A stretch of DNA of 64,000 bases from Minisyncoccota bacterium (GCA_041663025.1 JBAZRE010000001.1:5912-69911), one strand, 5' to 3'. Shown: positions 5,257-21,227, numbered from the stretch's first letter. Notes: a model not told the origin generated them from the letters alone. Translations and numbers: made by a program.

Positions 5257-5838
5257 TTACATTAAAGGAAGATTGAATTGCCGTCGGATACCTTTGTCGT
5301 GTTCTATTGTATCGGCAATTGCATAGAGAACATCCTTGCCTATCTTGAGTTCTGCTTTGAGAAGCGCGATGAAATCTTCGCAATCATAAGGGTAGACCCA
5401 CACGCTATCTTGCAAACGAATGAATCCCACTTCGCGCATGACAGCACATAGACGAAATCTCACTCGGCTTCTTCGTTCGGGAATATCAAAGACGATCATT
5501 CGCCAACGCTTATCCCATTTCTTTTTCTGATTTTTAATAGCAACTTTCGCTTGCTCAAGAGCAACCGCTTTGCGTCCTTTAGGGGTTATTCGTAAAAATT
5601 TCTTTCCATCTCTTTCGATCCAGTTTGCATATCCTTTGGTTACTAAACGCCCTGATGCTGACTTTGCTCTATACCTCAAGTTGTATTTTTCATTTGGCAG
5701 GTATTTGAGGAGCTGAAGAGCGTTCCCAGCGATGGCCGCTACAGCAATAAAGCCCGTGACTGCGACGGCAGCAAGCACTGCGTGTTGGATATCTCGTTTC
5801 TTTTTCCTTTTTCGCGACGTCTCTTCGAGTTTCCCCAT
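5257..5838 (-). CDS. membrane-anchored winged-helix + Cas2-like domain protein (paralog 1 of 3)
   Basis: 193 aa with a basic N-terminus (RKRKKKR) and a TM helix (AVLAAVAVTGFIAVAAIAG). A wing-like segment (GRLVTKGYANWIERDGKKFLRITPKG) follows. The C-terminus WRMIVFDIPERRSRVRFRLCAVMREVGFIRLQDSVWVYPYDCEDFIALLKAELKIG matches the Cas2 pattern by eye (lVvYDI…rR.k..k.l..yG.RvQnSVFec…). Confidence 0.5.
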   Translation of the reverse strand: MGKLEETSRKRKKKRDIQHAVLAAVAVTGFIAVAAIAGNALQLLKYLPNEKYNLRYRAKSASGRLVTKGYANWIERDGKKFLRITPKGRKAVALEQAKVAIKNQKKKWDKRWRMIVFDIPERRSRVRFRLCAVMREVGFIRLQDSVWVYPYDCEDFIALLKAELKIGKDVLYAIADTIEHDKGIRRQFNLPLM

Positions 5839-5856
5839 TAGCTTTAGTATAAATCA

Positions 5857-5898
5857 AATATCCCTATCTTTACCGACCGATTGTTGATAAGGATACGA
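5857..5898. repeat. copy-specific direct repeat A2, upstream flank and promoter region of paralog 1
   Basis: ATATCCCTATCTTTACCGACCGATTGTTGATAAGGATAC. It contains the dyad ATCAA…TTGAT. Confidence 0.6.
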
Positions 5899-6104
5899 CT
5901 TCTAGGACGACGCCTCAGATGAGCGAATTGGCTTTTATTTGGTCCGCCAATTTATTTCAAAACAAAGGGAGTATTTGTTCGGAATATTCCATCTCGAGAA
6001 TCGAAGCCAGAAAAATTGGAACTTGTTATCACTAATCTTCCCGAAACCAAATCGGTTAAGCGTGAGCTCAATATCTATGGACATACTTGATTTATCGCTT
6101 ATTT

Positions 6105-8573
6105 CTATAACGCAACCATGCTGGCGATGGAGTCGCCCTCGCGCATTTTCATGATACGGACACCTTGAGTCGCGCGGGAAAGGAGCGAAATTTCGGCAAC
6201 GCCGGTACGGATCACTTGCCCTTTCTTAGAAACAACCACCAATTCTTCTTCTTTGAGGTCGCCAATGCAGACGCGCGCGCCGATAATCTCGCCCGTCTTC
6301 GGTGTCACTTCTGCCGTCTTGATACCCGAACCGCCGCGACCCTGCACCTTATATTCAGACAGCTTGGTGCGCTTGCCGTAACCTTTGCTCATAATAACGA
6401 GGAGTGATGCCTCACGAGCCGCAGCAGAGATCACTTCTGCCGAAACCACCTTGTCGCCTTTCTTCACACTCATACCGCGCACACCACCGGCCGTGCGCCC
6501 CATCTCTCGCACTTCTTCAGTATCAAAACGAATCGACTGCCCTTTTGACGTCACGATCGAGACCGTGTCGCCCTCTGCCGAGTGATGAGCCGAGACGAGT
6601 TTGTCACCCTTCTTCAAATTAATCGCGATGATGCCCGAGCGCCGCACATCAGAGAACGACTTCGCTGCCACGCGCTTCACGACACCCTGCTCGGTTACAA
6701 AAACGACTGACGAGGCATCGAGCGCAGCACCCTTCGGCACCGGCAATATTGAAGTAACATTCTCATCTCCCGCGAGCGCGAGGAAGTTCATAATGCTCTT
6801 GCCCTTGGTCGCGCGCTTCCCTTCTGGGATCTCATACATCTTGAGCTGATACGCCTTACCGAAGTCGGTGAAGAAGAGAAGATCGCTGTGTGCATTGGTC
6901 ACCAAGAAGTGCGTCACAATGTCTTCTTCTTTGGTCGCGATATCCACGACACCCACACCGCCGCGCTTCTGCTTCTTATATTCATTTGGATTCGTTCGCT
7001 TGATGTATCCGCCCTGCGTCATAATCAACATCGACTCTTCATCGGGCACAAGATCTTCGGCAGAGATGTTCTGCACGCCGCCACGTACAATCTTGGTACG
7101 TCGATCATCGCCATATTTCAGGGCGAGCTCGGCGAGTTCGCTCTTCACCACCGCGAGAATCTTCTTGGGCGAGGAGAGAATTTCTTTAAGCTTCTTGATG
7201 AGTGTCTGAATCTCGGAGAGCTCGTCTTCTAGCTTCTTGCGTTCGAGACCAGCAAGCTTCGAGAGACGCATTTCGAGAATCGCCGCTGCCTGCAAAGATG
7301 AGAAGCCAAATTTCTTTTGGAGCGCGAGACTCGCCGATGGCACATCAGCCGCCTTCTTAATGATCGCAATAACCTCGTCGATATGATCGAGCGCCTTGCA
7401 GAGCCCGAGGAGGATGTGCTCGCGCGCCTCGGCCTGTCGCAGATCGTATTCAGTACGGCGCTTCACTACCTCTTGACGATGATGCACAAAGTGACCGAGC
7501 ATTCCCGAGAGTGAGAGCATCTCTGGCACGCCGTCGACGAGCGCGAGCATGTTGTAGTGGAAAGTGCTCTCGAGCTCGGTGTGTTTATACAAAGCGTTCA
7601 AGACCGCCTGCGGATGCGCTGTGCCTTTGAGCTCAACCACCACTCGAATGTCTGAGGTAGACTCGTCACGCAAGTCGCGAATGCCTTCAAGCTTCTTCTC
7701 TTGTACCAGCTCAGCGATACGCGTGATGAGCTCGCTCTTATTCACGCGATATGGAATAGAAGTGATAACGATGTGAGTGTCCTTTTTGCTGTCGTCAATA
7801 ATCTCCGCTTCGCCGCGCACTACCACCGGCCCCTTGCCCGAGCCATAGGCATGTTTGATATCCGTATGATTAAAGGCGACGCCGCCGAGCGGGAAATCGG
7901 GGCCTTTTACAAACTGCAGAAGATCATCGGTTGTTGCATCAGGATTATCGATAAGATGTATCGCTGCGGCAACAACCTCGCGGAGATTGTGTGGCGGGAT
8001 GTTCGTCGCCATGCCGACTGCGATGCCGAGCGTACCGTTCAAGAGCAGGTTTGGCAACGCTGCAGGGAGGACGTTCGGCTCTTCGCGCGTCGCGTCATAG
8101 TTTGGATTCCACGCGACAGTCTCCTTCTCAAGATCAAGGAGGAGCGCTTCGGCGATGCGCGACATCTTCGCCTCGGTGTAGCGCATGGCGGCTGGACTAT
8201 CGCCGTCAATGGAGCCGAAGTTGCCCTGCCCAAGCACGAGCGGATATCGGTGAGAGAAGTCTTGCGCCATCTTCGCCATCGAGTCGTAGACCGCAACATC
8301 GCCGTGCGGGTGATATTTACCGAGCACTTCGCCGACGACTGTGGCCGACTTGCGGAATTTCGCACCCGGCACGAGTCCCATGTCCTTCATCGCATAAAGG
8401 ATGCGGCGGTGCACCGGCTTCAAGCCGTCACGTACATCTGGTAGAGCGCGACTCGTGATGACAGACATCGCGTAGTCGAGATATGAAGTGCGCATCTCCG
8501 AGACGATCGGTTGATCAATGACGTTTGCCGCCACGATAGATACTCCTCCAGGATTTTTATCTTTTGAAGCCAT
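6105..8573 (-). CDS. gyrA: DNA gyrase subunit A
   Basis: 822 aa. N-terminal [33 protein letters not shown] with the catalytic Tyr region, and C-terminal beta-pinwheel repeats. Confidence 0.95.
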
Positions 8574-8576
8574 TAT

Positions 8577-8933
8577 TTAAAACGGGAGGATTGTCTGCTC
8601 TGCCTGCTTCACAGGAAGCTTTGATGGCGAAGTGTCTACAATCTCGATATGCGCGGGTACGTCCCCGTCTTGAAGCGCCGCCGCGGCGCCAGCAATCCCG
8701 CCGACGGCGGGATGTGAGTTAGAACCTGTATCGGTCGTGATTGCTGGTTCCTGACTCGTACTCTCGGCAAATGTGCTTCCCTGAATAGCAAATTTCCCAG
8801 ACGAGAGTGTACCTACGAACCACACTAGAGCGATAAGAGAGGTTCCAATCCCGGCAACGCCGAAGACGATCCTCTTCCGGATGTGGTGCGGCTTTCCTTT
8901 TGCGTATTCAATATGTTCAAAAATGGTTTTCAT
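8577..8933 (-). CDS. hypothetical membrane protein
   Basis: 118 aa with a single TM segment (IVFGVAGIGTSLIALVWFVGTL). It lies directly downstream of gyrA. Confidence 0.45.
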   Translation of the reverse strand: MKTIFEHIEYAKGKPHHIRKRIVFGVAGIGTSLIALVWFVGTLSSGKFAIQGSTFAESTSQEPAITTDTGSNSHPAVGGIAGAAAALQDGDVPAHIEIVDTSPSKLPVKQAEQTILPF

Positions 8934-8950
8934 GCGAGTTAGGCAAGATC

Positions 8951-9592
8951 TTATGGCTGCATCACAATTATACTCCCATCGCGACCAATGAGATCCTTCT
9001 TTTTCAATGTTAATTTATCAACTGTATCGCTCCCGTTCCCGGTCGCTTTCAAGAATGCTTCAAGTGCTTTCGGCTGACCGATACCACTCCAGTGCATCGG
9101 GATGATGATCTTCGGCTCGAGCGAGACCGCGAGCTCATGCGCTTTTGATGGGGAGAGGACACCATCGCCTCCAACTGGAACGAAAAGCACATCAACCTCG
9201 CCCATGTTCTCGCGCGCCTCCTTAGAGAGCTCGGCATCAGCGAGAGCTCCTAGATGCACGAGTGTCATGTCTTCAAGCTCAACACTATAGATAGTATTCA
9301 CCGCTTCTTCCTGACCTTTTGCAAGACCATATTTAGATTTAGAGAGAAATCCTTGAATATTAATGCCTTGTTTTTCGTATTCACCGGGGCCAGTGATTGC
9401 AAATGGCTTCTTCTCGCCGTAGGTCACTTCTTCAACACCATTCATATCTGCATGATCGCGTGAGACGAGAGCGATGTCCGCGCCGAAGCGTACCGGAGGC
9501 AAACTTGCACCTTTGGCAATTGGATCAAATACAAGCGTTAAGTCACCAAAAGTGACTTTAAAACACTGCCCGCCGTGGTGGGTTATGACCAT
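8951..9592 (-). CDS. MBL-fold metal-dependent hydrolase (UPF0173-like)
   Basis: 213 aa. MVITHHGGQCFKV…DPI…LVSRDHADM…VDVLFVPVGG…IIPMHW is typical of the metallo-beta-lactamase superfamily. Confidence 0.7.
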   Translation of the reverse strand: MVITHHGGQCFKVTFGDLTLVFDPIAKGASLPPVRFGADIALVSRDHADMNGVEEVTYGEKKPFAITGPGEYEKQGINIQGFLSKSKYGLAKGQEEAVNTIYSVELEDMTLVHLGALADAELSKEARENMGEVDVLFVPVGGDGVLSPSKAHELAVSLEPKIIIPMHWSGIGQPKALEAFLKATGNGSDTVDKLTLKKKDLIGRDGSIIVMQP

Positions 9593-10056
9593 AATTTAGG
9601 CTTATTCTATCATAAAACGCCTCTATCCACAACGGGTTTTATAGACTCTTGCGAAGAAAACTGGCTCTGCTATATTCATATTCAGACAAGTTCCTTGGAT
9701 CGGCGTGTTGCCGAGGCGCTCATGTCTTCACTGGGCCGGTTGGCTAAACTAAAGGAGATTGCTCTATGATTGCTTTTACATGCAGTACAACGTTTTGAAC
9801 CTTGTGAAATCATGATGTAGTAATCTGGTCGTCTCGCCTGACCTTAGTCAGCGAGACCGTTAGAAGGATTAACTCGGCCGGATGGCCACAACTAGATGCC
9901 CGCTTCCTCTCGGAGGACCGGGCATTTACCTTTTTCATACTTTCTGCTATAGTCCCTCTGTTGCGTGCTGAGAAGTAGATTCTGGCTAACACTGATGTTC
10001 TAAGGTTTAACCTCAGAACCAGCACCGGATTCGAAAATCTGCATAGCTTTATATAA

Positions 10057-11181: not shown

Positions 11182-11192
11182 GAAAACAAATA

Positions 11193-11230
11193 AAAAAACA
11201 CCCTCGTAAGAACGAGGGTGTTTTTTTATT
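11193..11230. terminator. bidirectional rho-independent terminator between rpsA and pth
   Basis: AAAAAAACACCCTCG-TAAGAA-CGAGGGTGTTTTTTTATT. Confidence 0.7.
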
Positions 11231-11825: not shown

Positions 11826-11873
11826 GCGAGAATCGTATCACAAACTTGCATGCTGCAAACAGACGAGTACACT

Positions 11874-12467
11874 ATGCATATGTCTGACACTTGGAAGGGT
11901 CTGCTGAAGGATCTTTTCACGCTTGCACTCCTTGTTATTGTCGTTGTTATCCCGATTCGTGTCTTCGTCATTTCTCCTTTTGTTGTTGATGGTGAATCAA
12001 TGCATCCAACCTTTGAGAATCTCGACTATCTTATTGTTGACGAGTTTCTCTACATCTTCCAAACACCCGCCCGCGGTGATGTGGTCGTCTTCCGCTACCC
12101 AGACAATCCATCTATTTTTTATATCAAGCGCGTTATCGGACTCCCAGGCGAGACTGTCTCTATCAATAGAGGCGCGGTGACCATTATCAAAGCCGATGGG
12201 AGCGAGCTAACGCTAGCCGAGCCATACATTGTGAACGAAGACGCGACGTACACAAAAAACACTTCGCTCAACTCTGGTGAATATTTTGTTATGGGAGACA
12301 ATCGTCCGAACAGTTCTGACTCACGCATTTGGGGTCCATTGCAAAGGAAGAATATTATCGGTCGCGTCGACCTCCGGCTCCTCCCTATTTCAAAAAGTAG
12401 TTTCTTCCCAGGTGCAACGACTTATTCATCTATCACTGCAAGTTCGACAAAATCCCTTGCACCATGA
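11874..12467 (+). CDS. lepB: signal peptidase I
   Basis: ATG at 11874 (MHMSDTW…) is chosen over the longer ORF-track start. TM helix, then VVDGESMHPTF (Ser box), YIKRVIGLPGETV (Lys box) and FVMGDNRPNSSDSR. Confidence 0.85.
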   Translation: MHMSDTWKGLLKDLFTLALLVIVVVIPIRVFVISPFVVDGESMHPTFENLDYLIVDEFLYIFQTPARGDVVVFRYPDNPSIFYIKRVIGLPGETVSINRGAVTIIKADGSELTLAEPYIVNEDATYTKNTSLNSGEYFVMGDNRPNSSDSRIWGPLQRKNIIGRVDLRLLPISKSSFFPGATTYSSITASSTKSLAP

Positions 12468-13609
12468 TGCGCGATATTATCCCAGGAGAAGAGCTTTTGA
12501 GTAAATCACACGCTATTGGTCAGTATTACGGTTTCACTCCACTCTCCACGCTCACCGATAAAACGCGCGGCGCCGCCCGTCCAAAAAAAAATATTCCCGA
12601 TGCCGATATTGATTTCGGGAATGATCCGGTAGCTGACACCGTCGTAAACTTTTTGAAACAGTGCCGAAACTCTGAGTGCGTACCCTCTTCGCGGCGACCA
12701 CTCTTTATCTGGCATACGAACATTACCCCAGGGCGTCCAGTGCAGAAAAAAACAATCATACAATTCCACGCGCTCGGCACCGATCGCGCGATTGCAGATG
12801 CGGTTGTCATTCGCGCGCTCGTCGCCCTCTCGCGCGACCTCTTCCGTACTGAGCCCGTGGTGCGTATCAATTCAATGGGCGATAAGGAGACCCGCGCGCG
12901 CTACGCGCGCGAGCTCGGGTGTTATTTCAAAAAACGCGCGAACTCACTCCCCGATGAGTGTGCAGTGTGTGCGAAACGTGATGTGATTGAAGCTGCAGAG
13001 ATGGTTATTGCGCGTGGCTGGGCAGAGGATCTCCCGGCACCGACCGAGCATCTTTCTGATGCGAGCCGTAAACGTTTTGAAGATTTGCTCGAGTATCTTG
13101 AAATGACCGAAACACCCTATGAACTCGCACGCCACCTCATTAGCCGTAGCAATGCATGGAACGATATCTGTTTCGAAGTCATGGTTGGTGAACGACGTGT
13201 AGCATGGGGCTCGCGCTATGGTGATCTCACGAAGCACTTCTTCCCTGGTGCGCCATTCGCCGCAACGGGCGCAGTATTCCAAATCGCGAGTGAAGGTGCC
13301 GTGGTGAAGAAAACGTCACCATCGCGATTCCGCTTCTCCTTTATCCATATTGGCGACGAGGCAAAGCGGCACTCGATCCGCCTCGCTGAAGAATTCCGCA
13401 AAGCGCGCGTCCCGCTCACTCAAGATATCGGTGTCGAATCGCTAGCCGAACAGCTCTATCTCGCCGAGAAGCGCGACAGCCCCTATCTCCTCATTATGGG
13501 CCGCAAAGAGGCGCTTGAGAATTCGGCGATCCTCCGCAATCGCCAAACGCAACAAGAAACCATCCTCCCCCTCCTCGGCCTCGTCGACCGCCTAAAGTCG
13601 TTTGCATAA
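12464..13609 (+). CDS. hisS: histidyl-tRNA synthetase-like class II aaRS (divergent catalytic motifs)
   Basis: 381 aa. QFHALGTD resembles the HisRS motif 2 region and GSRYGDL resembles HisRS GGRYDxL. The C-terminal class II anticodon-binding domain reads FSFIHIGDEAKRHSIRLAEEFRKARVPLTQD…YLLIMGRKEAL. The N-terminal third aligns poorly. Confidence 0.5.
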   Translation: MMRDIIPGEELLSKSHAIGQYYGFTPLSTLTDKTRGAARPKKNIPDADIDFGNDPVADTVVNFLKQCRNSECVPSSRRPLFIWHTNITPGRPVQKKTIIQFHALGTDRAIADAVVIRALVALSRDLFRTEPVVRINSMGDKETRARYARELGCYFKKRANSLPDECAVCAKRDVIEAAEMVIARGWAEDLPAPTEHLSDASRKRFEDLLEYLEMTETPYELARHLISRSNAWNDICFEVMVGERRVAWGSRYGDLTKHFFPGAPFAATGAVFQIASEGAVVKKTSPSRFRFSFIHIGDEAKRHSIRLAEEFRKARVPLTQDIGVESLAEQLYLAEKRDSPYLLIMGRKEALENSAILRNRQTQQETILPLLGLVDRLKSFA

Positions 13610-13612
13610 CTA

Positions 13613-13633
13613 CCGTAAGGTGTCACCTTACGG
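13613..13633. repeat. REP-like hairpin, solitary copy of family 1
   Basis: Perfect palindrome CCGTAAGGTGTCACCTTACGG. The same unit occurs at 40057, 40098 and 40830-40874 next to a RAYT gene. Confidence 0.8.
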
Positions 13634-14481: not shown

Positions 14482-14514
14482 GAGCCCTCCCGCTCCTTGT
14501 GGGCTTTTTGTTTA
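14482..14514 (+). terminator. rho-independent terminator
   Basis: GAGCCCTCCCGCTCCTTGTGGGCTTTTTGTTT. Confidence 0.6.
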
Positions 14515-14516
14515 TC

Positions 14517-14558
14517 CACTATTTATAACGGTCGTAGATACTTTTTGATATTACTTCA
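14517..14558. repeat. copy-specific direct repeat B1, downstream flank of paralog 2
   Basis: …TTTATAACGGTCGTAGATACTTTTTGATATTAC. The core ACGGTCGT..ATA.TTTTTGATA is shared with 15143-15170. Confidence 0.55.
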
Positions 14559-15132
14559 GACCGAAATGTTCGCGCAGATGCTTATCGTTTTCAATTTCTT
14601 CAACAACCATATACAACACAGCAGACCCAATCTTTAACTCTGCTTTTAACAATGCAACGAAATCCTCACAATCGTATGGAAAGACCCATACGCTATCCTG
14701 TAGACGAACGAAGCCAATTTCCTGCATAAGAATTCGCAATCGATCGCGTGTCTTGCGGCGACGCTCCGGCACGTCAAAGATAACCACGCGCCACCTGCCA
14801 TTCCAGCGGCGTTTTTTGGAGAGATCTAATTTCTTTTTCTCGAGTTCGAAAGTAAGTTTCTTCTGTCCCGCATCCGTGATTTGCGCATATGATTTGCCAT
14901 CCCTTTTTTGAAACGTAACAAGTCCGAGCACTGCAAGCCTCCCAAGTGCAGTACGGTATTGGTAACGTAATTTCGCTCGTTGTAACGGAGGTAGTTTCGC
15001 AAGCGCTCCCGGCAGACCAGGCGCTATGGCCGCGACAAGTACGACACCCGATAGAGCAACAGCGGCAAGCAAACCAGCTTGGACATTTGTACGTATTCTC
15101 TTTTTCTTCGCTCCTGATTCTACATTCCCCAT
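14551..15132 (-). CDS. membrane-anchored winged-helix + Cas2-like domain protein (paralog 2 of 3)
   Basis: 193 aa with a basic N-terminus, a TM helix (AGLLAAVALSGVVLVAAIAPG) and a wing segment (GLVTFQKRDGKSYAQITDAGQKKL). The C-terminus is WRVVIFDVPERRRKTRDRLRILMQEIGFVRLQDSVWVFPYDCEDFVALLKAELKIG. Confidence 0.5.
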   Translation of the reverse strand: MGNVESGAKKKRIRTNVQAGLLAAVALSGVVLVAAIAPGLPGALAKLPPLQRAKLRYQYRTALGRLAVLGLVTFQKRDGKSYAQITDAGQKKLTFELEKKKLDLSKKRRWNGRWRVVIFDVPERRRKTRDRLRILMQEIGFVRLQDSVWVFPYDCEDFVALLKAELKIGSAVLYMVVEEIENDKHLREHFGLK

Positions 15133-15175
15133 ATCAAAAATATACCACGGTCGTGTATAGTTTTTGATACAGAGG
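15130..15175. promoter_or_regulatory. palindromic site B2 in the divergent promoter region between paralog 2 and the 81-aa ORF
   Basis: catATCAAAAAtataccacggtcgtgtatagTTTTTGATacag. It has 8-9 bp inverted arms around a spacer of about 20 bp, and is a diverged direct repeat of 14517-14558. Confidence 0.5.
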
Positions 15176-15510: not shown

Positions 15511-15520
15511 AATCTCCAAG

Positions 15521-15565: not shown

Positions 15566-15588
15566 TGATGTGCTAGAGTGGCGGAATC

Positions 15589-15849
15589 ATGTCAGCAGAC
15601 ACAAGAGTCGAAGTATCACGCGGGAAGAACGAGAGCGCGACCGCGCTTATTCGCCGCTTTACCCGCCGCGCGCAGGGGCTTGGCCTCGTGCGCGAGATGC
15701 GCGACCGCCGCTACTTCAAGCGGACGAAATCTAAGAATGTTGGCCTCAAGCGCGCCCTCATCAGCAAGGTTCGCCGCGAAAATTACAACGAGCTCGTGAA
15801 GCTCGGCAAGATTGATCCTGCAGCGAAGAAGGTTCGCGGGAAGCACTAG
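15589..15849 (+). CDS. rpsU: 30S ribosomal protein S21-like
   Basis: 86 aa, basic. ALIRRFTRRAQGLGLVREMRDRRYFKRTKSKNVGLKRA fits the S21 pattern (RRF.R…G…..R.R.YF.KP). Confidence 0.65.
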   Translation: MSADTRVEVSRGKNESATALIRRFTRRAQGLGLVREMRDRRYFKRTKSKNVGLKRALISKVRRENYNELVKLGKIDPAAKKVRGKH

Positions 15850-15856
15850 TTTAATA

Positions 15857-16309: not shown

Positions 16310-17390
16310 GCGCACGGGCGTACGGCAGGTGCGTATTCTTGGCACGGGCCTCGCTGAGTCGAAGGGCTTGCGGCATGGCTACATCGTCAATAAAGAAGAA
16401 GTATCTGTCTGCATCCAGAGAGCGAAGAAACAAGCGGAGTCGGTCGCACACGTGCCTATACGAGCTGGGTTCCTCGCCGTCGGCGGTATCTCTCTTGATG
16501 AAGCACGTGCAACTGGCTCTGCAATCATCTCACGCGCTGATCAAGAAATAACTACGCTCGATATCGAAAAGGCCGGAAAGGCAGCGCGTGAAGTTGCTGC
16601 ACCTGGTTTTCTTAATCGACATGTCCTGCACAGCATCCCCCTTGAATATCGAATTGATGGTTCCAAGGTACTTGGCGATCCGCTCGGTATGAAAGGTATA
16701 AAACTCGAGGTCGACTATCTATTTGTTACATGCCTCGCTCAGCATGAAGAGGCACTCTCAAAAGCGGTTGAAGATGCGGATATTGAAATAATTGATCAGA
16801 TGGCTTCCCCACTCGCTGGTTCGTATGTCCTCTTGGAGGGTGACCAGAAGATGAAGGGATGCGTGCTGGCGAACATCGGTGCCGAAACTGTTTCTATTGT
16901 TGTCTATGATGAGGGCATCCCAGTTTCTGTCAAAGTGTTCCCAATGGGTTCGAGCCACATCACAGATGATATTGCACTCGGATTCCGCATCTCACTCGAA
17001 GAAGCTGAACGTGTGAAGCTCGGGCGACTCTCGGGACAGATGTATCCGCGAAAAAAAGTTGATGATCTTGTCGGCAATCGCCTCACTGCGATGTTTGCGC
17101 TCGTTGATAAACATCTCAAATCGCTCGGTCGTCGTGGACCACTGCCGGCCGGCATTATTATTTCTGGTGGCGGTGCTGGCATCGGCTCGGTAAGTGATAT
17201 CGCGAGAGGGTCTCTGAAGCTCCCTTCACGCCTCGCAGAGCTGCGCATCTCTGCTGATACAAAAATTCGTGATGCGACCTGGGCGGTTGCATATGGCCTC
17301 GCGATCTGGGGACTCACTGGCGACACGAATGCTCCAAAAAAGAATTTTCTTGCCTCACTATCAAAATTCTTTCGCCAGTTCTTGCCATAG
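16230..17390 (+). CDS. ftsA: cell division protein FtsA
   Basis: 386 aa with an actin-like fold. GIDIGTYQIKMVVVEE…, …IISGGGAGIGSV…, and a C-terminal amphipathic tail. Confidence 0.85.
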   Translation: MARRIATGIDIGTYQIKMVVVEELTDKRTGVRQVRILGTGLAESKGLRHGYIVNKEEVSVCIQRAKKQAESVAHVPIRAGFLAVGGISLDEARATGSAIISRADQEITTLDIEKAGKAAREVAAPGFLNRHVLHSIPLEYRIDGSKVLGDPLGMKGIKLEVDYLFVTCLAQHEEALSKAVEDADIEIIDQMASPLAGSYVLLEGDQKMKGCVLANIGAETVSIVVYDEGIPVSVKVFPMGSSHITDDIALGFRISLEEAERVKLGRLSGQMYPRKKVDDLVGNRLTAMFALVDKHLKSLGRRGPLPAGIIISGGGAGIGSVSDIARGSLKLPSRLAELRISADTKIRDATWAVAYGLAIWGLTGDTNAPKKNFLASLSKFFRQFLP

Positions 17391-17506
17391 ACAAAATAAA
17401 TAGATTTTGTGTTGACTTTTTGTTGCCTAGCTAGTATAGATGAGTTCGTGAGGTTTTGATCTCACGGGGTGTTCTTTCCATTAACCTATAACGATGGAGG
17501 TGTGAA

Positions 17507-18268
17507 ATGGCTTCGGTCAAAGATCCAAAAACTAAGGCCCAAGAAATGCTCGAGATTGCTCTCGGGAAGAAACGAATCTGCTTCGGTAAATTGTCCAAGA
17601 CAGAGGTTGACGAATTATTGAGGTCGGTGCTGTCAGAAGTCCGTCTCCGGGAGCTACGCGGATTCAAGCCCCTCAGAGAACTTCTCACTTTCCGACCAGG
17701 AAGTGTTGTCTACGGTGGACCGACTCGGCATACCCTTGATGTGGAAGTGCTCGACTTGAGTGAGGATGTTTTGCTCCTAGCTAACGGATTTAAAGATTCT
17801 CCCCCAATCACTTTAGACACACATGTCATGAGTCTGTCTCGTAATGCGGGAAAATGGACAGCCACTTTCAAACGGAACGAATCGGATGAGGAAACTGAAG
17901 ATTACGGAACAGCGTCTTCTTGGGGCCGATCAGCGTACCGTTACAAAGGGAGCGGTGAGGTTTTGACACTCCGGCGATCCCACAATCACACGAGGGCGGA
18001 TGAGAATCTAATCATCACAAAGTTCTCGTACGTTAAGGTTCCACTGAAGCAGAGGTACGTGATTACGAAGATGGAACTACAGCCATTTCCTCTTGAGAAG
18101 TTTCGTCAACATTACGGTTCATCGTATGCTCGAGTAGCCGTTGAGCTCATCCGAGAGCTCGGAAGCGTCTACCGACGAACATCGGACGAACTTGCGTTTC
18201 AATCGGACTCCATGCGCAAAAAAGTCACCGAGTTTGAGAGATTGTCAGAAGCACTTTCGTTCAGATAA
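17507..18268 (+). CDS. hypothetical protein inserted between ftsA and ftsZ
   Basis: 253 aa. SD GGAGGTG before ATG, and a terminator at 18285-18318. No recognisable motifs. Confidence 0.5.
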   Translation: MASVKDPKTKAQEMLEIALGKKRICFGKLSKTEVDELLRSVLSEVRLRELRGFKPLRELLTFRPGSVVYGGPTRHTLDVEVLDLSEDVLLLANGFKDSPPITLDTHVMSLSRNAGKWTATFKRNESDEETEDYGTASSWGRSAYRYKGSGEVLTLRRSHNHTRADENLIITKFSYVKVPLKQRYVITKMELQPFPLEKFRQHYGSSYARVAVELIRELGSVYRRTSDELAFQSDSMRKKVTEFERLSEALSFR

Positions 18269-18284
18269 AATTGTTATTTCTTGT

Positions 18285-18318
18285 AAACCCCACTGAGATT
18301 CGCTCCGGTGGGGTTTTT
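18285..18318 (+). terminator. rho-independent terminator
   Basis: AAACCCCACTGAGATTCGCTCCGGTGGGGTTTTT. Confidence 0.65.
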
Positions 18319-18411
18319 CATATGAAAATAATGAGTCATGTGCATTAGTTGTCAATATTTGCATAACCCAGCGTTCTGCTATCATGGCAGAAACACCTTA
18401 TTTATATTTAT

Positions 18412-19659
18412 ATGTCAAAGCGCATTGAACCAGAGGTTGAGACGTTCGCACGGATTCGGGTGGTTGGCGTCGGTGGCTCGGGCAAAAATGCAGTGAATCA
18501 CATGATCGATTCGAAGGTGCGTGGCGTTGAGTTCATCGCGGTCAACTCTGATGCGCAAGATCTCCACCGGTCGCTCGCCAAGCGCAAGATCCACATCGGA
18601 AAGAATCTCACGAGAGGGCTCGGCACAGGGATGAATCCTGAGCTCGGCAAGCGCGCCGCCGAGGAGACCCGTCAAGAGATCCAAGAAGCACTCTCGGGCA
18701 GCGACATGGTCTTCATCACCTGCGGCATGGGTGGTGGCACCGGCACTGGAGCCTCTGCGATTATTGCAAAAATAGCGAAAGAGGTCGGTGCACTCGTCAT
18801 CGCGGTCGTGACGAAACCATTTTCCTTTGAGGGTGCACAGCGCAAAGATATCGCCGAGCGCGGTCTCGCCGAATTGAAGAAAGAGGTTGATGCATTCATA
18901 GTCATCCCAAATGACAAACTACTCGCGATTGTCGATAAGGATACGTCAGCAAAAAGCGCCTTCGCGATGTGTGACGAGATCTTGCGCCAAGCGGTCGAGG
19001 GCGTCTCCGACATTATTACGACTCCTGGTGATATCAATACCGACTTTAACGACATCAAGGCAATTATGGAGGGTGCCGGCCCTGCTCTCATGGGTATCGG
19101 CATCGCTGAAGGTGACGAACGAGCTCGTGAGGCCGCACGCCAGGCGGTCAATTCCCCACTCCTTGATGTTTCTATTAGTGGTGCAAAAGGCATTCTCTTC
19201 GTCGTGGCTGGATCTGATGATCTCGGCATCATGGAGGTACAAGAGGCCGCAAAGGTTATAAGTGAATCTATCGACAAGAGCGCGAAGGTTATCTTCGGCA
19301 TTATGCGCGATGAGAAACTTAAGAAGGGCCAGATTCGCATTATCGTCATCGCAACTGGTTTCCCAGAGGGAGCGATACACACATCTACAGTCGAGCGTTC
19401 TCTATTCTCGATGCCGGTAGAAAAACATGAGGAAGAACGTGGTCGCATTTATCATGAGATTCTAAAGCGTGAAGAAAAAGAAGAGAAACCGGAGGTTAAG
19501 GTTGAGAAAAACTTGACTGTCGAAAGCACTCCTTTTGGCGGAAAGGAAGAACCTATCGTCACGGCACTGCCGCACAAGCGCGAGGTGATTCCTGTTGTTC
19601 CAGAAGATGATGAATCCTGGGGCGCAATTCCGGCATTTTTGCGCCGTCATAAAAAGTAG
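18412..19659 (+). CDS. ftsZ: cell division protein FtsZ
   Basis: 415 aa. GVGGSGKNAV…, the tubulin signature GGGTGTG and the T7 loop are all present. Confidence 0.95.
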   Translation: MSKRIEPEVETFARIRVVGVGGSGKNAVNHMIDSKVRGVEFIAVNSDAQDLHRSLAKRKIHIGKNLTRGLGTGMNPELGKRAAEETRQEIQEALSGSDMVFITCGMGGGTGTGASAIIAKIAKEVGALVIAVVTKPFSFEGAQRKDIAERGLAELKKEVDAFIVIPNDKLLAIVDKDTSAKSAFAMCDEILRQAVEGVSDIITTPGDINTDFNDIKAIMEGAGPALMGIGIAEGDERAREAARQAVNSPLLDVSISGAKGILFVVAGSDDLGIMEVQEAAKVISESIDKSAKVIFGIMRDEKLKKGQIRIIVIATGFPEGAIHTSTVERSLFSMPVEKHEEERGRIYHEILKREEKEEKPEVKVEKNLTVESTPFGGKEEPIVTALPHKREVIPVVPEDDESWGAIPAFLRRHKK

Positions 19660-19671
19660 TTTTGTTTTGAA

Positions 19672-19703
19672 TGGAAAAAGGCAGATTCTCATCTGCCTTT
19701 TTT
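19672..19703 (+). terminator. rho-independent terminator
   Basis: GGAAAAAGGCAGATTCTCATCTGCCTTTTTT. Confidence 0.65.
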
Positions 19704-19725
19704 GATGCTTCACGCGTCAAGAAGA

Positions 19726-20502
19726 TTACCCCTCAACTAACGGCTTCATCCTCGGCCAGCAATCCCGTGATGGCACCCCTTCTGAGGAATGAGGAGGCCA
19801 CTCTTGTACATAACCCCAGCAGAGTTTGGGTCGCCCACCAAAGTTTTTTTCGGCAGAGACAGCCATCCGCTTATCTCTGTTTTCGTTTCCCCCAAAACGC
19901 GACCCGAGTGCTGAAATGTAGCCGATCCTTGAGAGAACGTCTGTGTGCACACAAAGCGCGACAACTTCTGTGATGGTCAGCGGAAATCGATTTTGTTTCG
20001 CAAGGAGCTTCTCAGCATTTTTCTCGTTTGCCTCGATTGATGTCGTTCCGTCATTTATGTCGAAGATGTAGCTCAGCGCACTTGTCTTTTCAACATCCTC
20101 AACCGAATAACTGTGGTCGGCATAACCGACTTTACCATCGGTGGTTCGTATCATAGCCATGAGATCATAGACGGTGCGCTGATCTAATGAAATGACCGGC
20201 AAGAACGGGATATTCCATTTGCCCAAAGTCATTTCCATCGCATGCCGCATAACATCTCCTTTGCTGTTACGAAGCCATCTCCTAATCGGTTCGGGAACAC
20301 CGCGTTCTATGAGAGTCGCGATTTGACTCTCAAAAAGTTTGTCGAACTCCTTCCATCTGGTGATCTCACTGTTGGCGTGTGCCACGGTAGCATCGATTTT
20401 TTCTCTGAAATCATCAATGGTTTCGAACGGTTCCATAATTGCTTTGACTAACTTATTGTCTGTCTCTATTCTTTCTTTCATCTCCCACCTCCCTATAAAC
20501 AC
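19726..20502 (-). CDS. hypothetical protein, downstream partner of paralog 3
   Basis: 258 aa with no recognisable motifs. The palindromic site C1 (20591-20649) lies about 90-150 bp upstream of its start. Confidence 0.45.
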   Translation of the reverse strand: MFIGRWEMKERIETDNKLVKAIMEPFETIDDFREKIDATVAHANSEITRWKEFDKLFESQIATLIERGVPEPIRRWLRNSKGDVMRHAMEMTLGKWNIPFLPVISLDQRTVYDLMAMIRTTDGKVGYADHSYSVEDVEKTSALSYIFDINDGTTSIEANEKNAEKLLAKQNRFPLTITEVVALCVHTDVLSRIGYISALGSRFGGNENRDKRMAVSAEKNFGGRPKLCWGYVQEWPPHSSEGVPSRDCWPRMKPLVEG

Positions 20503-20590
20503 AGTTATTTGTTATATCTCAAACACCCTAATCCGCCGTAAGTTAACTCCTTTGTCGCCGAAAAGTCAAAGTGATTGTACTAAGCCGGCT

Positions 20591-20649
20591 CATGTATCAA
20601 TTTTCATCCTATAGGATAAGAATTGAGACAACTTACTTTCACAAGTCAT
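20591..20649. promoter_or_regulatory. repeat C1: palindromic TCCTATAGGA-centred site upstream of 19726..20502 and downstream of paralog 3
   Basis: CATGTATCAATTTTCATCCTATAGGATAAGAATTGAGACAACTTAC. It is a near-duplicate of 21225-21276. Confidence 0.55.
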
Positions 20650-21227
20650 AGGAGTCGGAAGTGTTCCCGAAGTCGGCGATCTGATTCAAGTGCCTCGGCA
20701 ACGAATGAGAGCATTTCGCCCGTACCGCTCTTGAGGTGTGCGCGGACAAGCCCGATGAATTCATCACAGGGATATGGATATATCCAGACACTGTCCTGAA
20801 GCCTCAAGAAACCAGCGCCCATGAGAAGAGTCCGTAGTTGCGAACGAGCTCGCCTGCGCTTCTCGCGGATATCAAACATAACGACGCGCCACTTGCCATC
20901 CCAGAATACTGGTGCAGGAATGCGGTATTCGTTTGCGTACACCGTTCCAATCACCGCACGACCCTTTTCGGTCAACGAGGCATTGCGGTGTCCATACTTT
21001 CCTGATGTCTTTACGAGACCGGCGTACTCGAGACGGGTTATTGCCTGCGTGATACGACGGTACAAATCTTTCCGATTCGCCACACCACGATCAAGTTTTT
21101 TCAGAATGGTCAGTACCCTCGGAGCGACGAGTGCGACACCGAGCGCCCCACTCACTGCTAGCGTTCGCAAAATGAGATTGCGCATTGGCAGATATTTCCC
21201 GCGCGTTTCCGTCCGCATTTTCTTCAT
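20646..21227 (-). CDS. membrane-anchored winged-helix + Cas2-like domain protein (paralog 3 of 3)
   Basis: 193 aa with a hydrophobic helix (LAVSGALGVALVAP) and a recognition helix plus wing (ITRLEYAGLVKTSGKYGHRNASLTEKG). The C-terminus is WRVVMFDIREKRRRARSQLRTLLMGAGFLRLQDSVWIYPYPCDEFIGLVRAHLKSG. Confidence 0.5.
   Translation of the reverse strand: MKKMRTETRGKYLPMRNLILRTLAVSGALGVALVAPRVLTILKKLDRGVANRKDLYRRITQAITRLEYAGLVKTSGKYGHRNASLTEKGRAVIGTVYANEYRIPAPVFWDGKWRVVMFDIREKRRRARSQLRTLLMGAGFLRLQDSVWIYPYPCDEFIGLVRAHLKSGTGEMLSFVAEALESDRRLREHFRLL

What the first reader, a model, noticed from the sequence alone, without database searches (positions are those of the whole stretch)
5257..21227. Three dispersed paralogs of a membrane-anchored winged-helix + Cas2-like nuclease-domain protein, with no cas1 and no CRISPR array
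The ORFs at 5257-5838, 14551-15132 and 20646-21227 are all 193 aa and share one architecture. Each has a basic N-terminus and a 20-residue Ala/Val/Gly-rich TM helix, then a segment with a classic wHTH wing signature (G-L-V-x5-8-Y-x-L-T-x-x-G). The last 70 residues are W-R-[MV]-[IV]-[VMI]-F-D-[IV]-[PR]-E-R/K-R-R…R-x-[LR]-L…[IV]-G-F-[IL]-R-L-Q-D-S-V-W-[VI]-[YF]-P-Y-x-C-[ED]-[DE]-F-[IV]-x-L-[LV]-[KR]-A-[EH]-L-K. Laid against canonical Cas2 (MlVLVtYDVs…RRlRKVaklCekyGqRVQNSVFECl…) this reproduces beta1 with the catalytic Asp, the basic helix, and the G-x-R-[VL]-Q-x-S-V-[FW] strand. A Cas2/VapD-fold endoribonuclease domain fused to a DNA-binding-like module and tethered to the membrane is not a standard annotated architecture, and it occurs here three times outside any cas context. 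Each copy sits beside a different small hypothetical gene. It could be a toxin-like or abortive-infection-like nuclease, an autoregulated TA-like module, or the single gene of a small mobile cassette (see the flank findings).
Basis: partly seen in the sequence, partly recalled or inferred. Interest (0 to 1): 0.8.

Follow-up and report, generated by a model that had tools for sequence, protein, structure and literature searches.

The report
Self-bracketed mini-PaaX regulators, not Cas2
The three genes encode small DNA-binding proteins related to the PaaX repressor (a winged-helix domain plus a Cas2-shaped domain), and each gene sits between two copies of its own ~40-bp palindrome, so they are most likely self-regulating transcription factors of an uncultured Patescibacteria genome rather than membrane-anchored CRISPR-type nucleases.

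Summary
The three 193-aa minus-strand ORFs are real paralogs (35-48% identity). Their C-terminal halves match Pfam PF20803, the "PaaX central Cas2-like domain", at E 1e-16 to 4e-20. Cas2 profiles are hit only marginally. AlphaFold models match E. coli PaaX best, then full-length PadR winged-helix proteins and Cas2. The window has no cas1 and no CRISPR array. The family is very large in Paceibacteria, has several paralogs per genome, is inherited in conserved housekeeping neighbourhoods, and NCBI often names it "Cas2".

The "TM helix" aligns in register with helix 1/strand 1 of the winged helix. It carries charged residues in many relatives and is modelled as part of the domain, so a membrane anchor is doubtful.

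New here: each gene is bracketed by two copies of a paralog-specific 38-40 bp imperfect palindrome. One overlaps a leaderless promoter and one follows the stop codon. The pattern holds across the family (52/71 family genes against 9/496 other genes). The palindrome has about the length of the PaaX operator.

Best reading (0.58): cytoplasmic, dimeric, autoregulated minimal PaaX-type repressors. The main rival is a nuclease/palindrome system analogous to REP/RAYT.

The parts
5257..5838 (-). Paralog A, 193 aa: winged helix (about nt 5530-5790) plus PaaX_M/Cas2-like domain (nt 5299-5523)
   Evidence: ORF. PF20803 E 1.5e-16, residues 106-180. A-type orthologues (64-83% identity) are syntenic with gyrA, a SAM-methyltransferase and a substrate-binding protein in about 15 genomes.
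5858..5896 (-). A upstream palindrome GTATCCTTATCAACAATCGGTCGGTAAAGATAGGGATAT, ending 19 nt before the ATG and abutting the -10 box
   Evidence: 22 nt are 95% identical to the downstream copy.
5846..5851 (-). A -10-like box TATACT, 7 nt before the ATG; no Shine-Dalgarno (leaderless start inferred)
5212..5250 (-). A downstream palindrome AATATTCTTATAAATACCGGTCGGTAAAGATAAGGATAT, 6 nt after the stop and before the terminator of the convergent gene
14551..15132 (-). Paralog B, 193 aa: winged helix (about nt 14818-15084) plus PaaX_M/Cas2-like domain (nt 14587-14811)
15132..15169 (-). B upstream palindrome TATCAAAAACTATACACGACCGTGGTATATTTTTGATA; its last base is the A of the ATG, and it contains the -10 box TATATT (15139-15144)
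14513..14550 (-). B downstream palindrome TATCAAAAAGTATCTACGACCGTTATAAATAGTGGATA, starting directly after the stop. The left arm is B-type; the right arm (GTGGATA) resembles another paralog group's arm.
20646..21227 (-). Paralog C, 193 aa: winged helix (about nt 20913-21179) plus PaaX_M/Cas2-like domain (nt 20679-20903). Identical to public protein P0121, which NCBI names 'CRISPR-associated endonuclease Cas2' (Candidatus Paceibacterota MAG).
21226..21265 (-). C upstream palindrome ATGTCTCAATTTCTGTCCTATAGGATATAATTTGATACAT, running into the ATG and containing the -10 box TATAAT (21235-21240)
   Evidence: (D1/I1).
20592..20631 (-). C downstream palindrome TTGTCTCAATTCTTATCCTATAGGATGAAAATTGATACAT, 14 nt after the stop and upstream of the co-directional DUF5701-like gene 19726-20484

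Best explanation
A, B and C are cytoplasmic, dimeric, sequence-specific DNA-binding proteins of the PaaX lineage, reduced to its first two domains. These are a PadR/PaaX-type winged helix (residues about 17-105) and a Cas2-fold domain (about 110-180), and the C-terminal effector-binding domain is missing.

Each paralog recognises its own 38-40 bp imperfect palindrome. The two winged helices of a dimer would read the outer arms, about 29-31 bp apart. The flexible centre (CGRYCG, CTATAG or CCATGG) lies under the Cas2-like dimer.

One copy of the palindrome overlaps the gene's own promoter. The -10 box lies in or just after the right arm, 5-9 nt before the ATG, so the mRNA is leaderless. Binding there would shut off the gene's own transcription, giving negative autoregulation. 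A second copy lies 0-30 nt after the stop codon. It most likely acts as a second operator (a loop anchor or transcription roadblock), or in co-directional cases as the operator of the next gene.

Shown: homology and fold; the family-wide bracket; the promoter register; the symmetry pattern; co-variation of arms with the recognition helix and wing.
Inferred: binding itself; repression; dimerisation through the Cas2-like domain; the role of the downstream copy; any role of the invariant Asp (a metal or effector site is possible).
For: Homology and fold:
- PF20803 PaaX_M E 1e-16 to 4e-20 in all three. TIGR02277 PaaX aligns over residues 59-168.
- hhalign of the family against E. coli PaaX: 95% probability, E 2.8e-8, family 56-177 aligned to PaaX 54-171. 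The N-terminal length before helix 3 is the same, 55 against 53 residues.
- AlphaFold with a 138-sequence alignment: pLDDT 88.6.
- Foldseek: 8a39 E 5.5e-6 over 165 columns.

Operator length:
- The E. coli PaaX operator is TGATTC-N27-GAATCA, 39 bp (PMC9493321). That is about the length of the palindromes found here.

The bracket:
- Window repeats D1 and D2.
- Upstream/downstream match score of 13 or more in 52/71 family genes, against 9/496 other genes and 9/300 non-cognate family pairs.
- Within the 64 kb window the cognate palindromes occur only at the two flanks of each gene.

Promoter register:
- TANNNT lies 5-9 nt before the ATG in 72/83 family genes against 81/311 others. A Shine-Dalgarno motif is present in only 6/83.

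dsDNA-protein signature:
- Mismatches cluster at position 1 and positions 5-10 from the dyad. Positions 2-4 and 11-18 stay symmetric. There is no G:T excess.

Co-variation:
- Within A-type orthologues, changes in the recognition helix track changes in all four arms.
- C and its 84%-identical paralog P0126 share the recognition helix and the palindrome centre but differ in the wing and the outer arms.

Other sites and inheritance:
- Solo cognate palindromes occur in intergenic regions of other genomes, some at conserved positions.
- Vertical inheritance in housekeeping synteny with no conserved partner gene.
Against: - No binding or expression data exist; everything rests on sequence and models.
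- A repressor does not normally need a second operator after its stop codon. In copy A the downstream neighbour is convergent, so that site cannot be a promoter operator.
- Many solo palindromes sit right after stop codons or between convergent genes, a location more typical of REP elements or terminators than of operators.
- The Cas2 signature (F-D-x-P-E, G-F-x-R-L-Q-x-S-V-W), with an invariant Asp and Ser, is far better kept than in E. coli PaaX, which has LLSEG at that place. This hints at more than a passive dimerisation role.
- A and B have a stretch hydrophobic enough (KD 2.4-2.5) that a TM predictor would call it.
- The Pfam PaaX_N model itself did not hit at E <= 1.
Confidence: 0.58

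Rival explanations
1. A palindrome-plus-nuclease system analogous to REP/RAYT or IS200. The wHTH targets the protein to its cognate palindrome and the Cas2-like domain, with its invariant Asp, nicks or cleaves there. The unit [palindrome-gene-palindrome] would be a domesticated or slowly mobile cassette, and the solo palindromes would be its dispersed non-autonomous copies or excision scars.
For: - The gene is exactly bracketed by cognate palindromes with nothing else inside.
- Solo copies lie after stop codons and between convergent genes, sometimes in tandem with a second palindrome type. One 12.7-kb contig (L111) has three copies of one type.
- Variable small genes and TA modules lie next to the palindromes.
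- L044 has gyrA followed by a degenerate solo palindrome and then the methyltransferase, which looks like an empty site.
- Asp, Ser and the rest of the Cas2 signature are invariant.
- B-type sits in a different place in this genome than in its relatives.
- The same window carries two true IS200-type Y1 genes, each bracketed by its own palindromes, so this architecture exists in the organism.
Against: - No HUH/Y1, recombinase or other known transposition domain is present.
- Copy number is low: no solo copy in the 64 kb window, and about 13 operator-like solos in 915 kb of relatives.
- A-type and B-type positions are conserved across genomes whose proteins are only 64-83% identical.
- No phage or plasmid relatives were found.
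- The upstream palindrome keeps a fixed register to the -10 box and the ATG.
- The closest homologue is a bona fide repressor.
Confidence: 0.14
2. One reading: the hydrophobic N-terminal stretch is a real signal-anchor. The proteins would then be membrane-tethered, either tying specific chromosomal sites to the membrane (C-terminus inside) or exposing a nucleic-acid-binding or nuclease module on the cell surface (C-terminus outside).
For: - KD 19-mer means of 2.38 (A), 2.50 (B) and 1.86 (C). A and B have 25-27 uncharged residues.
- 131 of 150 diverse representatives exceed KD 1.6.
- A basic N-terminal flank (median 6 K/R) precedes the stretch.
- L22 and G29 are conserved on one helix face.
Against: - The stretch aligns in register with helix 1/strand 1/helix 2 of the wHTH. 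In 108 of 149 representatives it holds at least one charged residue. The hydrophobicity distribution is unimodal, not bimodal.
- A whole clade in the same lineage (P0366 group) has a plainly amphipathic version and keeps the same palindrome bracket.
- Only 55 residues precede the recognition helix, as in PaaX (53), so there is no room for a TM helix plus a complete wHTH.
- AlphaFold models it (pLDDT about 80) so that 95 of 103 PadR residues superpose.
- The positive-inside rule would place the DNA-binding domains outside the cell, which conflicts with the operator evidence.
- In C, Arg residues interrupt the stretch.
Confidence: 0.1
3. An RNA-level role. The downstream palindrome is transcribed as a long 3' hairpin, and the protein (an RRM-like Cas2 fold plus wHTH) binds or cleaves it, controlling termination or mRNA stability.
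For: - The downstream copy lies inside the transcript, 0-30 nt after the stop.
- Cas2 and VapD relatives have reported RNase activity (PMC3506569).
- Solo copies lie at gene 3' ends.
Against: - There is no G:T over A:C excess. Half of all mismatches are non-wobble, and mismatches cluster in a spacer zone rather than being spread along a stem.
- The upstream copy is largely not transcribed if the mRNA is leaderless.
- Outer-arm sequences are conserved as sequence (TATC...GATA), not only as pairing.
- No U-tract follows the palindromes.
Confidence: 0.06
4. A toxin, abortive-infection or TA-like nuclease, or an orphan CRISPR Cas2.
For: - Weak Cas2 profile hits: TIGR01573 at 26-28 bits for B and C, and PADLOC Cas2 at E 4e-7 to 1.5e-4.
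- Public records name these proteins Cas2.
Against: - Pfam Cas2 scores are below the gathering cutoff in all three (17-20 bits against 23.8), and only about 36-50 residues align.
- No cas1 and no array.
- No conserved partner gene.
- Several strongly conserved paralogs per genome sit in housekeeping contexts.
- The protein is fused to a specific DNA-binding domain whose cognate sites lie at its own promoter.
Confidence: 0.03

Closest known systems
PaaX, the phenylacetyl-CoA-responsive repressor of the paa operon (E. coli; PDB 8A39, 3L09; Pfam PaaX_N/PaaX_M/PaaX_C; TIGR02277)
   Different: No C-terminal effector-binding domain: 193 aa against 316 aa. TIGR02277 scores 31-43 bits against a cutoff of 264.55. 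No paa genes nearby. The Cas2 signature, including the beta1 Asp, is retained (E. coli PaaX has LLSEG there). Helix 1 is extremely hydrophobic. There are 3-5 paralogs per genome, each with its own palindrome, and a second palindrome after the stop codon. Leaderless promoters.
Cas2 (CRISPR adaptation protein) and VapD
   Same: [quoted passage not shown] The Asp at the end of beta1. The basic helix. The G-x-R-x-Q-x-S-V-[FW] strand.
   Different: Fused to a sequence-specific wHTH. No cas1, no array, no antitoxin. The Pfam Cas2 score is below the cutoff. The proteins group with PaaX_M, not with Cas2. The public 'Cas2' names are best treated as over-annotation.
PadR-family (subfamily 2) and MarR-type winged-helix regulators
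   Same: The first ~105 residues superpose on whole PadR proteins (95 of 103 residues, 2.5 A), including the long N-terminal helix and the C-terminal helix. These are dimeric regulators that bind palindromic operators at their own promoters.
   Different: No significant sequence match. The operator is twice as long. Dimerisation is probably through an added Cas2-like domain.
REP/RAYT and IS200/IS605 modules
   Same: A single small gene exactly bracketed by cognate imperfect palindromes. Each paralog has its own palindrome family. Solo palindromes lie in intergenic regions near gene 3' ends. Vertical inheritance. Two true Y1_Tnp examples lie in this same window (40081-40827 and 53294-53923).
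   Different: No HUH/Y1 domain. Very few dispersed copies. The palindromes are dyad-symmetric through the centre (no loop) and twice as long as typical REPs. The upstream copy is built into the promoter.

Membership tests
PaaX family (TIGR02277; Pfam PaaX_N + PaaX_M + PaaX_C) | Central Cas2-like domain PF20803 above the gathering score | tested here: met
   60.6, 72.0 and 62.8 bits against a cutoff of 24.
PaaX family (TIGR02277; Pfam PaaX_N + PaaX_M + PaaX_C) | N-terminal winged-helix DNA-binding domain | tested here: met
PaaX family (TIGR02277; Pfam PaaX_N + PaaX_M + PaaX_C) | C-terminal effector (aryl-CoA) binding domain PaaX_C | tested here: not met
   The proteins end about 15 residues after the Cas2-like domain, and there is no PaaX_C hit.
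PaaX family (TIGR02277; Pfam PaaX_N + PaaX_M + PaaX_C) | Equivalog score and paa-operon context | tested here: not met
   31-43 bits against 264.55. The neighbours are gyrA, rpsU, trxB, ftsZ and unannotated genes.
PaaX family (TIGR02277; Pfam PaaX_N + PaaX_M + PaaX_C) | Binds a long palindromic operator at its own promoter | not testable with these tools
   Candidate operators of 38-40 bp overlap the promoters, and the PaaX operator is 39 bp. Binding itself needs an experiment.
Cas2 (PF09827 / TIGR01573) | Profile score above the curated cutoff | tested here: inconclusive
   Pfam 17.4, 19.5 and 19.9 bits, all below 23.8. TIGR01573 20.1 (A, below), 26.3 (B) and 28.4 (C) against 24.5, over only 36-38 residues.
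Cas2 (PF09827 / TIGR01573) | Ferredoxin-like Cas2 fold with an Asp at the end of beta1 | tested here: met
Cas2 (PF09827 / TIGR01573) | Encoded with cas1 next to a CRISPR array | tested here: not met
   No spaced repeats. No Cas1 among 54 window ORFs. No cas neighbours in 80 related loci.
Type II toxin-antitoxin (VapD-like) | A conserved adjacent partner gene | tested here: not met
   No neighbour cluster is shared across the family; neighbours follow orthologue-specific housekeeping synteny.
REP/RAYT or IS200/IS605 | HUH/Y1 transposase domain | tested here: not met
   No Y1_Tnp hit in A, B or C, whereas two other window genes do hit it.
REP/RAYT or IS200/IS605 | Gene flanked by cognate palindromes | tested here: met
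REP/RAYT or IS200/IS605 | Many dispersed copies of the palindrome in the genome | tested here: inconclusive
   None in the 64 kb window. About 13 operator-like solos in 915 kb of relatives, and about 20 solo A-type sites in metagenome contigs. No whole genome could be scanned.
Single-pass (signal-anchor) membrane protein | An uninterrupted hydrophobic stretch of about 18 or more residues that is conserved as hydrophobic across the family, with a consistent topology | tested here: inconclusive
   Met in A and B, weak in C. 108 of 149 representatives have at least one charged residue in the aligned segment, and one clade is amphipathic. The positive-inside rule gives a C-out topology that conflicts with DNA binding. 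No dedicated TM predictor was available.

The most novel reading that the evidence does not exclude
The wHTH-Cas2-like proteins and their cognate 38-40 bp palindromes form a previously undescribed protein/repeat system of Patescibacteria, analogous to REP/RAYT but built on a Cas2-fold nuclease. Each paralog would recognise, and through its invariant Asp cut or nick, its own palindrome family. This would bracket and mobilise its own gene and shape intergenic regions and gene-insertion hot spots. If so, it would be a free-living relative of Cas2 that has sequence-specific DNA targeting, which bears on the origin of both PaaX and the CRISPR adaptation module.
Probability: 0.13. Interest if true: 0.85.

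Novelty: new variant of a known kind. Interest (0 to 1): 0.58.

Why it matters
1. Annotation. Many proteins in Patescibacteria MAGs are named "CRISPR-associated endonuclease Cas2" because of a marginal partial hit. They belong to the PaaX_M lineage and have no cas context, so surveys of CRISPR in the CPR may be inflated by them.

2. Regulation in the CPR. These reduced genomes have few recognisable transcription factors. This looks like a family of compact, leaderless, self-bracketed regulators with 3-5 apparently orthogonal paralogs per genome and a readable protein-to-operator code. That makes CPR gene regulation testable in vitro.

3. Evolution. The family keeps the full Cas2 signature next to a PaaX-type winged helix. 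It is a plausible intermediate between Cas2/VapD-like proteins and the PaaX repressors.

4. An unexplained design. I found no description of a second copy of the palindrome directly after the stop codon, or of solo copies at gene ends, in the papers searched. If these act as protein roadblocks, loop anchors or recombination sites, that would be a new way of delimiting transcription units.

Tried and rejected
- Literature: searches for PaaX+Cas2, PaaX+Patescibacteria, Cas2-like+winged helix, and orphan Cas2 in the CPR found nothing on this family.
- PDB sequence search: only a weak hit to 3kfw, E 0.03.
- Fold search against afdb50: the library was not available.
- tblastn against phage and plasmid collections: no match.
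- Metagenome scan with the A-type arm. By my rough estimate of the collection size, about half of the 66 hits are what chance predicts for a 17-base pattern. The scan could therefore only show that real solo palindromes exist, not count them.
- Centre orientation. I considered that the asymmetric central dinucleotide (GT/AC), which flips between copies, marks a serine-recombinase-type crossover site. I rejected this because the centres form a transition series (CGGTCG, CGGCCG, CGACCG) and interchange with CTATAG within a single locus, L072.
- Direct reading of the centre. I considered that the conserved Cas2-like domain reads a conserved central motif. This is not supported, because the centre varies (TATA, GGTC, GGCC, CATG) for near-identical proteins. 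It looks more like a bendable pyrimidine-purine-rich hinge.
- Shine-Dalgarno control. The SD frequency in control genes is unreliable because control start codons were crudely called. Only the -10 comparison is used.


Full report
**1. The observation**

Three ORFs of exactly 193 aa lie on the minus strand at 5257-5838 (A), 14551-15132 (B) and 20646-21227 (C). They are clear paralogs. Identities are A/B 47-48%, A/C 35% and B/C 38%, with tblastn E-values of 1e-29 to 1e-57. tblastn finds no fourth copy in the window.

The window has no CRISPR-like spaced repeats. Scanning 54 window ORFs against PADLOC found no Cas1. The neighbours are housekeeping genes (gyrA, rpsU, ftsA/ftsZ, trxB) plus unannotated genes beside each copy.

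**2. What the proteins are**

All three hit Pfam PF20803, "PaaX protein central Cas2-like domain", far above its cutoff (E 1.5e-16, 4.3e-20, 3.3e-17). Pfam Cas2 stays below its cutoff (17-20 bits against 23.8). NCBIfam PaaX (TIGR02277) aligns over residues 59-168, but at only 31-43 bits against an equivalog cutoff of 264.55. TIGR01573 cas2 is just passed by B and C over 36-38 residues. That marginal hit fits the name "CRISPR-associated endonuclease Cas2" that NCBI gives to relatives, including copy C itself (P0121, Candidatus Paceibacterota MAG, 148-kb contig). JGI calls them PaaX or MarR.

A profile of 138 family members aligns with E. coli PaaX at 95% probability (E 2.8e-8). Family residues 56-177 match PaaX 54-171, which covers the recognition helix, the wing, the linker helix and the whole Cas2-like domain.

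AlphaFold with a shallow alignment gave pLDDT 73. With the 138-sequence alignment it gave 88.6. [quoted passage not shown]

- Foldseek: 8a39 is the only hit below E 0.001 (5.5e-6 over 165 columns). Next come 3l09 and then many Cas2 chains.

The family these proteins belong to is the PaaX lineage, without PaaX_C. The Cas2 signature is unusually well kept. D120, S147, P152 and G89 are invariant in 138 sequences. W110, W114, R115, F119, E123, R129, G140, F141, Q145, V148, W149 and C155 are at least 90% conserved. E. coli PaaX has LLSEG where this family has F-D-x-P-E.

**3. Distribution and inheritance**

The family is very large in Paceibacteria (Kaiser-, Nomura-, Adler- and Taylorbacteria).
- At least 563 stretches were confirmed in GTDB species representatives.
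- At the 50%-identity level, 422 clusters score E < 1e-30 and 2762 score E < 1e-10. Nearly all are 180-200 aa.
- Several genomes contributed two or three loci. A fourth paralog, P0126, is 84% identical to C. It is listed with the same longest-contig length (148,432 bp) as copy C, and in a related assembly it lies about 10 kb beyond A, next to infB.

Orthologues of each paralog are strongly conserved (70-93% identity) and syntenic. A-type sits in the order gyrA > (variable small ORF) > X > (variable) > SAM-methyltransferase > substrate-binding protein in about 15 genomes. B-type usually follows map-ndk-beta-CASP RNase-(NUDIX), downstream of the ribosomal-protein/secY cluster. In this window B lies elsewhere, next to rpsU.

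No neighbour is conserved across the family, so a TA pair is not supported. There are no relatives in the phage or plasmid collections.

**4. The "TM helix"**

A and B do carry 25-27 uncharged residues (KD 2.4-2.5). In C, R21 and R37 are 15 residues apart. Five things argue that this stretch is helix 1/strand 1/helix 2 of the winged helix rather than an added anchor.

1. Only 55 residues precede the recognition helix, as in PaaX (53). There is no room for a TM helix plus a complete winged helix.
2. Across 149 diverse representatives the aligned segment follows the pattern iQ.aiL..l..aG.l.va.lAPN.l..L. It has no charged residue in 41 of them, one in 81, and two or more in 27. The hydrophobicity distribution is unimodal.
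3. A whole clade from the same lineage (P0366 group, for example KIQQKLLVLLTRLTTRSTKTAFAPENVLLKRLG) is plainly amphipathic and canonical. It keeps the same palindrome bracket.
4. AlphaFold models the segment with pLDDT about 80, and 95 of 103 PadR residues superpose.
5. The positive-inside rule (median 6 K/R before the stretch against 3 after) would put the winged helix and the Cas2-like domain outside the cell. That conflicts with the operator evidence below.

A dedicated TM predictor was not available, so I leave about 10% for a real anchor.

**5. The new feature: each gene is bracketed by its own palindrome**

The repeat finder showed a 46-nt repeat (83% identity, itself palindromic around TCCTATAGGA) at 21224-21269 and 20590-20635, which brackets C. 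It also showed a 22-nt repeat (95% identity) at 5858-5879 and 5212-5233, which brackets A. B has TATCAAAAACTATACACGACCGTGGTATATTTTTGATA running into its ATG, and TATCAAAAAGTATCTACGACCGT... starting directly after its stop.

This holds across the family. The best ungapped match between the 100 nt upstream and the 100 nt downstream scores 13 or more in 52 of 71 family genes. The figures are 9 of 496 for other genes in the same loci and 9 of 300 for non-cognate family pairs (listing).

The elements have these properties:
- They are 36-44 bp imperfect palindromes, symmetric through the centre. The outer arms are of the type (A)TATC.../...GATA(T). The centre is CGRYCG, CTATAG, CCATGG or similar.
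- They start either at -37 to -39, so that the right arm holds the -10 box and ends in the ATG, or at -57 to -62, so that the -10 box follows directly.
- A TANNNT hexamer ends 5-9 nt before the ATG in 72 of 83 family genes against 81 of 311 others. A Shine-Dalgarno motif is present in only 6 of 83. Leaderless mRNAs are therefore inferred.
- Mismatches between the arms cluster at position 1 and at positions 5-10 from the dyad, while positions 2-4 and 11-18 stay symmetric. G:T mismatches are not enriched over A:C (52 against 42 downstream, 41 against 58 upstream), and half of all mismatches are non-wobble. This is the pattern of a dimeric protein reading two zones about one helical turn apart on double-stranded DNA. 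It is not the pattern of an RNA stem.
- The palindromes are paralog-specific and co-vary with the protein. Within A-type orthologues, recognition helices ...YRAKSAAG go with CCTTATC arms...HQAKSA with TGTTATC, and ...RMKSVAG with C[CA]CTATC. All four arms change together.
- C and P0126 share the recognition helix and the centre TCCTATAGGA. They differ in the wing and in the outer arms: TGT[CA]T[C]AA against TGTCGGAA.

The total length matches the E. coli PaaX operator, TGATTC-N27-GAATCA (PMC9493321).

**6. Where else the palindromes occur**

In the 64-kb window the cognate sequences occur only at the two flanks of each gene. In relatives, 3 of 49 loci have a third copy within 6 kb. In L032 it lies directly after the last gene of the divergent operon, so that operon is bracketed too. 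L044 has a degenerate copy right after gyrA.

A strict detector found 77 such palindromes in 915 kb of related loci and none in shuffles. Of these, 56 lie next to family genes and 21 are solo. About 13 of the solos are of the operator type and the rest look like ordinary terminators.

A metagenome scan with the A-type arm returned 66 sites. About 8-10 lie next to a family gene. About 20 are full palindromes in loci without one. By my rough estimate of the collection size, the rest are about what chance predicts.

Solo sites lie directly after stop codons, between convergent genes, or 30-60 nt before the next gene. Four different contigs have one upstream of a variable TA module followed by pyrH. 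Several solo sites abut a second palindrome of another type. So there are a few extra sites per genome, some positionally conserved. That is compatible with a small regulon. Their frequent 3'-end location is not what simple operators predict.

**7. Mechanism**

Best supported (0.58): minimal PaaX-type dimeric repressors. The winged helices read the outer arms about 30 bp apart. The Cas2-like domain provides the dimer over a bendable centre. The promoter-overlapping copy gives negative autoregulation of a leaderless gene. The copy after the stop codon is a second operator. It may anchor a loop with the promoter copy (centre-to-centre 646, 620 and 634 bp). It may act as a roadblock ending the transcript. 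Where the next gene is co-directional, as downstream of C and P0126, it may be that gene's operator.

Shown: homology, fold, the family-wide bracket, the promoter register, the symmetry pattern and the co-variation.
Inferred: binding, repression, dimerisation, and the function of the downstream and solo copies and of the invariant Asp.

The main rival (0.14) is a REP/RAYT-like protein-palindrome system in which the Cas2-like domain is an active nuclease. It explains the exact bracketing, the 3'-end solos, the tandem palindromes and the variable genes beside the palindromes. It is weakened by the low copy number, the stable synteny, the promoter register and the lack of any transposition domain. 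A membrane-tethered version (0.10), an RNA-hairpin role (0.06) and a toxin or true Cas2 (0.03) are less likely.

**8. Comparison with known families, and novelty**

The closest known protein is PaaX. Membership of the PaaX equivalog is not met: there is no PaaX_C, the score is far below the cutoff, and there is no paa context. The proteins are best called PaaX_M-family, two-domain "mini-PaaX" proteins. They are not Cas2 by context or by the Pfam threshold. They are not RAYTs, because they have no Y1 domain.

I found no paper describing this family or its palindromes. I rate it a new variant of a known kind, with moderately high interest. It corrects a widespread annotation. It exposes a readable regulator-operator code in an uncultured phylum. 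It leaves an unexplained gene-bracketing design together with a fully conserved Cas2 signature.

Noticed in passing
window 40056-40877 and 52306-53974; solo copy at 13613-13633: Two IS200-like Y1_Tnp (RAYT-like) genes at 40081-40827 (E 7.6e-6) and 53294-53923 (E 7.9e-10). Each is flanked by doublets of its own short palindrome: CCGTAAGGTGACACCTTACGG at 40056-40121 and 40829-40877, and CAAGGGTGCCCCTTG at 53219-53270 and 53923-53974. Further copies of the second lie at 52306-52346 and 53432-53457. A solo copy of the first lies right after the stop of gene 12464-13609. This looks like a REP/RAYT system in a Patescibacteria genome.
   Followed up: partly
It is bracketed by TGTCGGAATATTTGTCCTATAGGATATAATTTCCGACA, which has the same centre as C's palindrome but different outer arms. 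The protein's wing also differs.
   Followed up: yes
window 14513-14550: B's downstream palindrome is a hybrid. The left arm is B-type (TATCAAAAA). The right arm...TAGTGGATA, matches the TATCCAC-type arms used by another paralog group in other genomes. It may be a heterodimer or cross-talk site, or simply decay.
   Followed up: no
window 18926-18945 (inside ftsZ): A 20-nt sequence, CGTATCCTTATCGACAATCG, matches the left arm of A's upstream palindrome at 19 of 20 positions (BLAST E 0.001 within the window). It is a half-site only and its meaning is unknown (D5, 54).
   Followed up: no
window 5898-5921; L087 about 1375-1400: The motif CATCTGAGGCGTCGTCCTAGAAGT lies directly upstream of A's palindrome. 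It recurs, as CATCTGAGGCGACGCCTTAGAAGT, upstream of infB in a related contig. It occurs only once in the window and is unexplained.
   Followed up: partly
metagenome loci L127 (about 793-860), L129 (182-247), L137 (936-1001), L111 (about 1096-1162, 2752, 3411): Solo A-type palindromes often abut a second palindrome of the type TATCCC.A...CTATAG...GGGATA. L111 carries three copies of that second type within 2.3 kb and has no family gene in its 12.7 kb. These are composite intergenic palindrome clusters.
   Followed up: partly
L139 738-1261, L137 354-840, L120 3889-4478: Different toxin-antitoxin modules (RHH/ParD-like with RelE/ParE-like; MazE-like with MazF/PemK-like, judged from sequence by eye) lie between a solo A-type palindrome and pyrH in different contigs. 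The variable small genes next to A-type X genes fit the same pattern. The palindromes coincide with gene-insertion hot spots.
   Followed up: no
L044 about 1450-1500: In a more distant genome gyrA is followed directly by the methyltransferase with no family gene between them. A degenerate copy of that genome's own family palindrome (shared core CTCATTATCTACG) lies right after the gyrA stop.
   Followed up: partly
window 53974-54048: tRNA-Ile with anticodon TAT (UAU), which as far as I know is less usual in bacteria than the lysidine-modified CAU tRNA-Ile2.
   Followed up: no
window 27416-27459 and 11189-11230: A 44-nt near-perfect palindrome, GGACATCGAATGTCCTAGTTTCTGAAATAGGACATTCGATGTCC, lies inside or near gene 26647-27891. 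A textbook bidirectional intrinsic terminator, AATAAAAAAACACCCTCGTAAGAACGAGGGTGTTTTTTTATT, lies at 11189-11230.
   Followed up: no
public records (P0036, P0075, P0077, P0082, P0121, P0122 and others): NCBI names many members of this family 'CRISPR-associated endonuclease Cas2'. This fits a TIGR01573 hit that covers about 37 residues and only just passes the cutoff. JGI names the same proteins PaaX, MarR or Cas2.
   Followed up: yes
family N-termini (for example window 5824-5838): The N-terminus M-G-x-x-E is conserved (M1 99%, G2 91%, E5 96% in 85 sequences). This holds even in A-type genes, whose palindrome does not reach the ATG. The reason is unknown; it may relate to leaderless translation or to an N-terminal DNA-contacting arm.
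   Followed up: no
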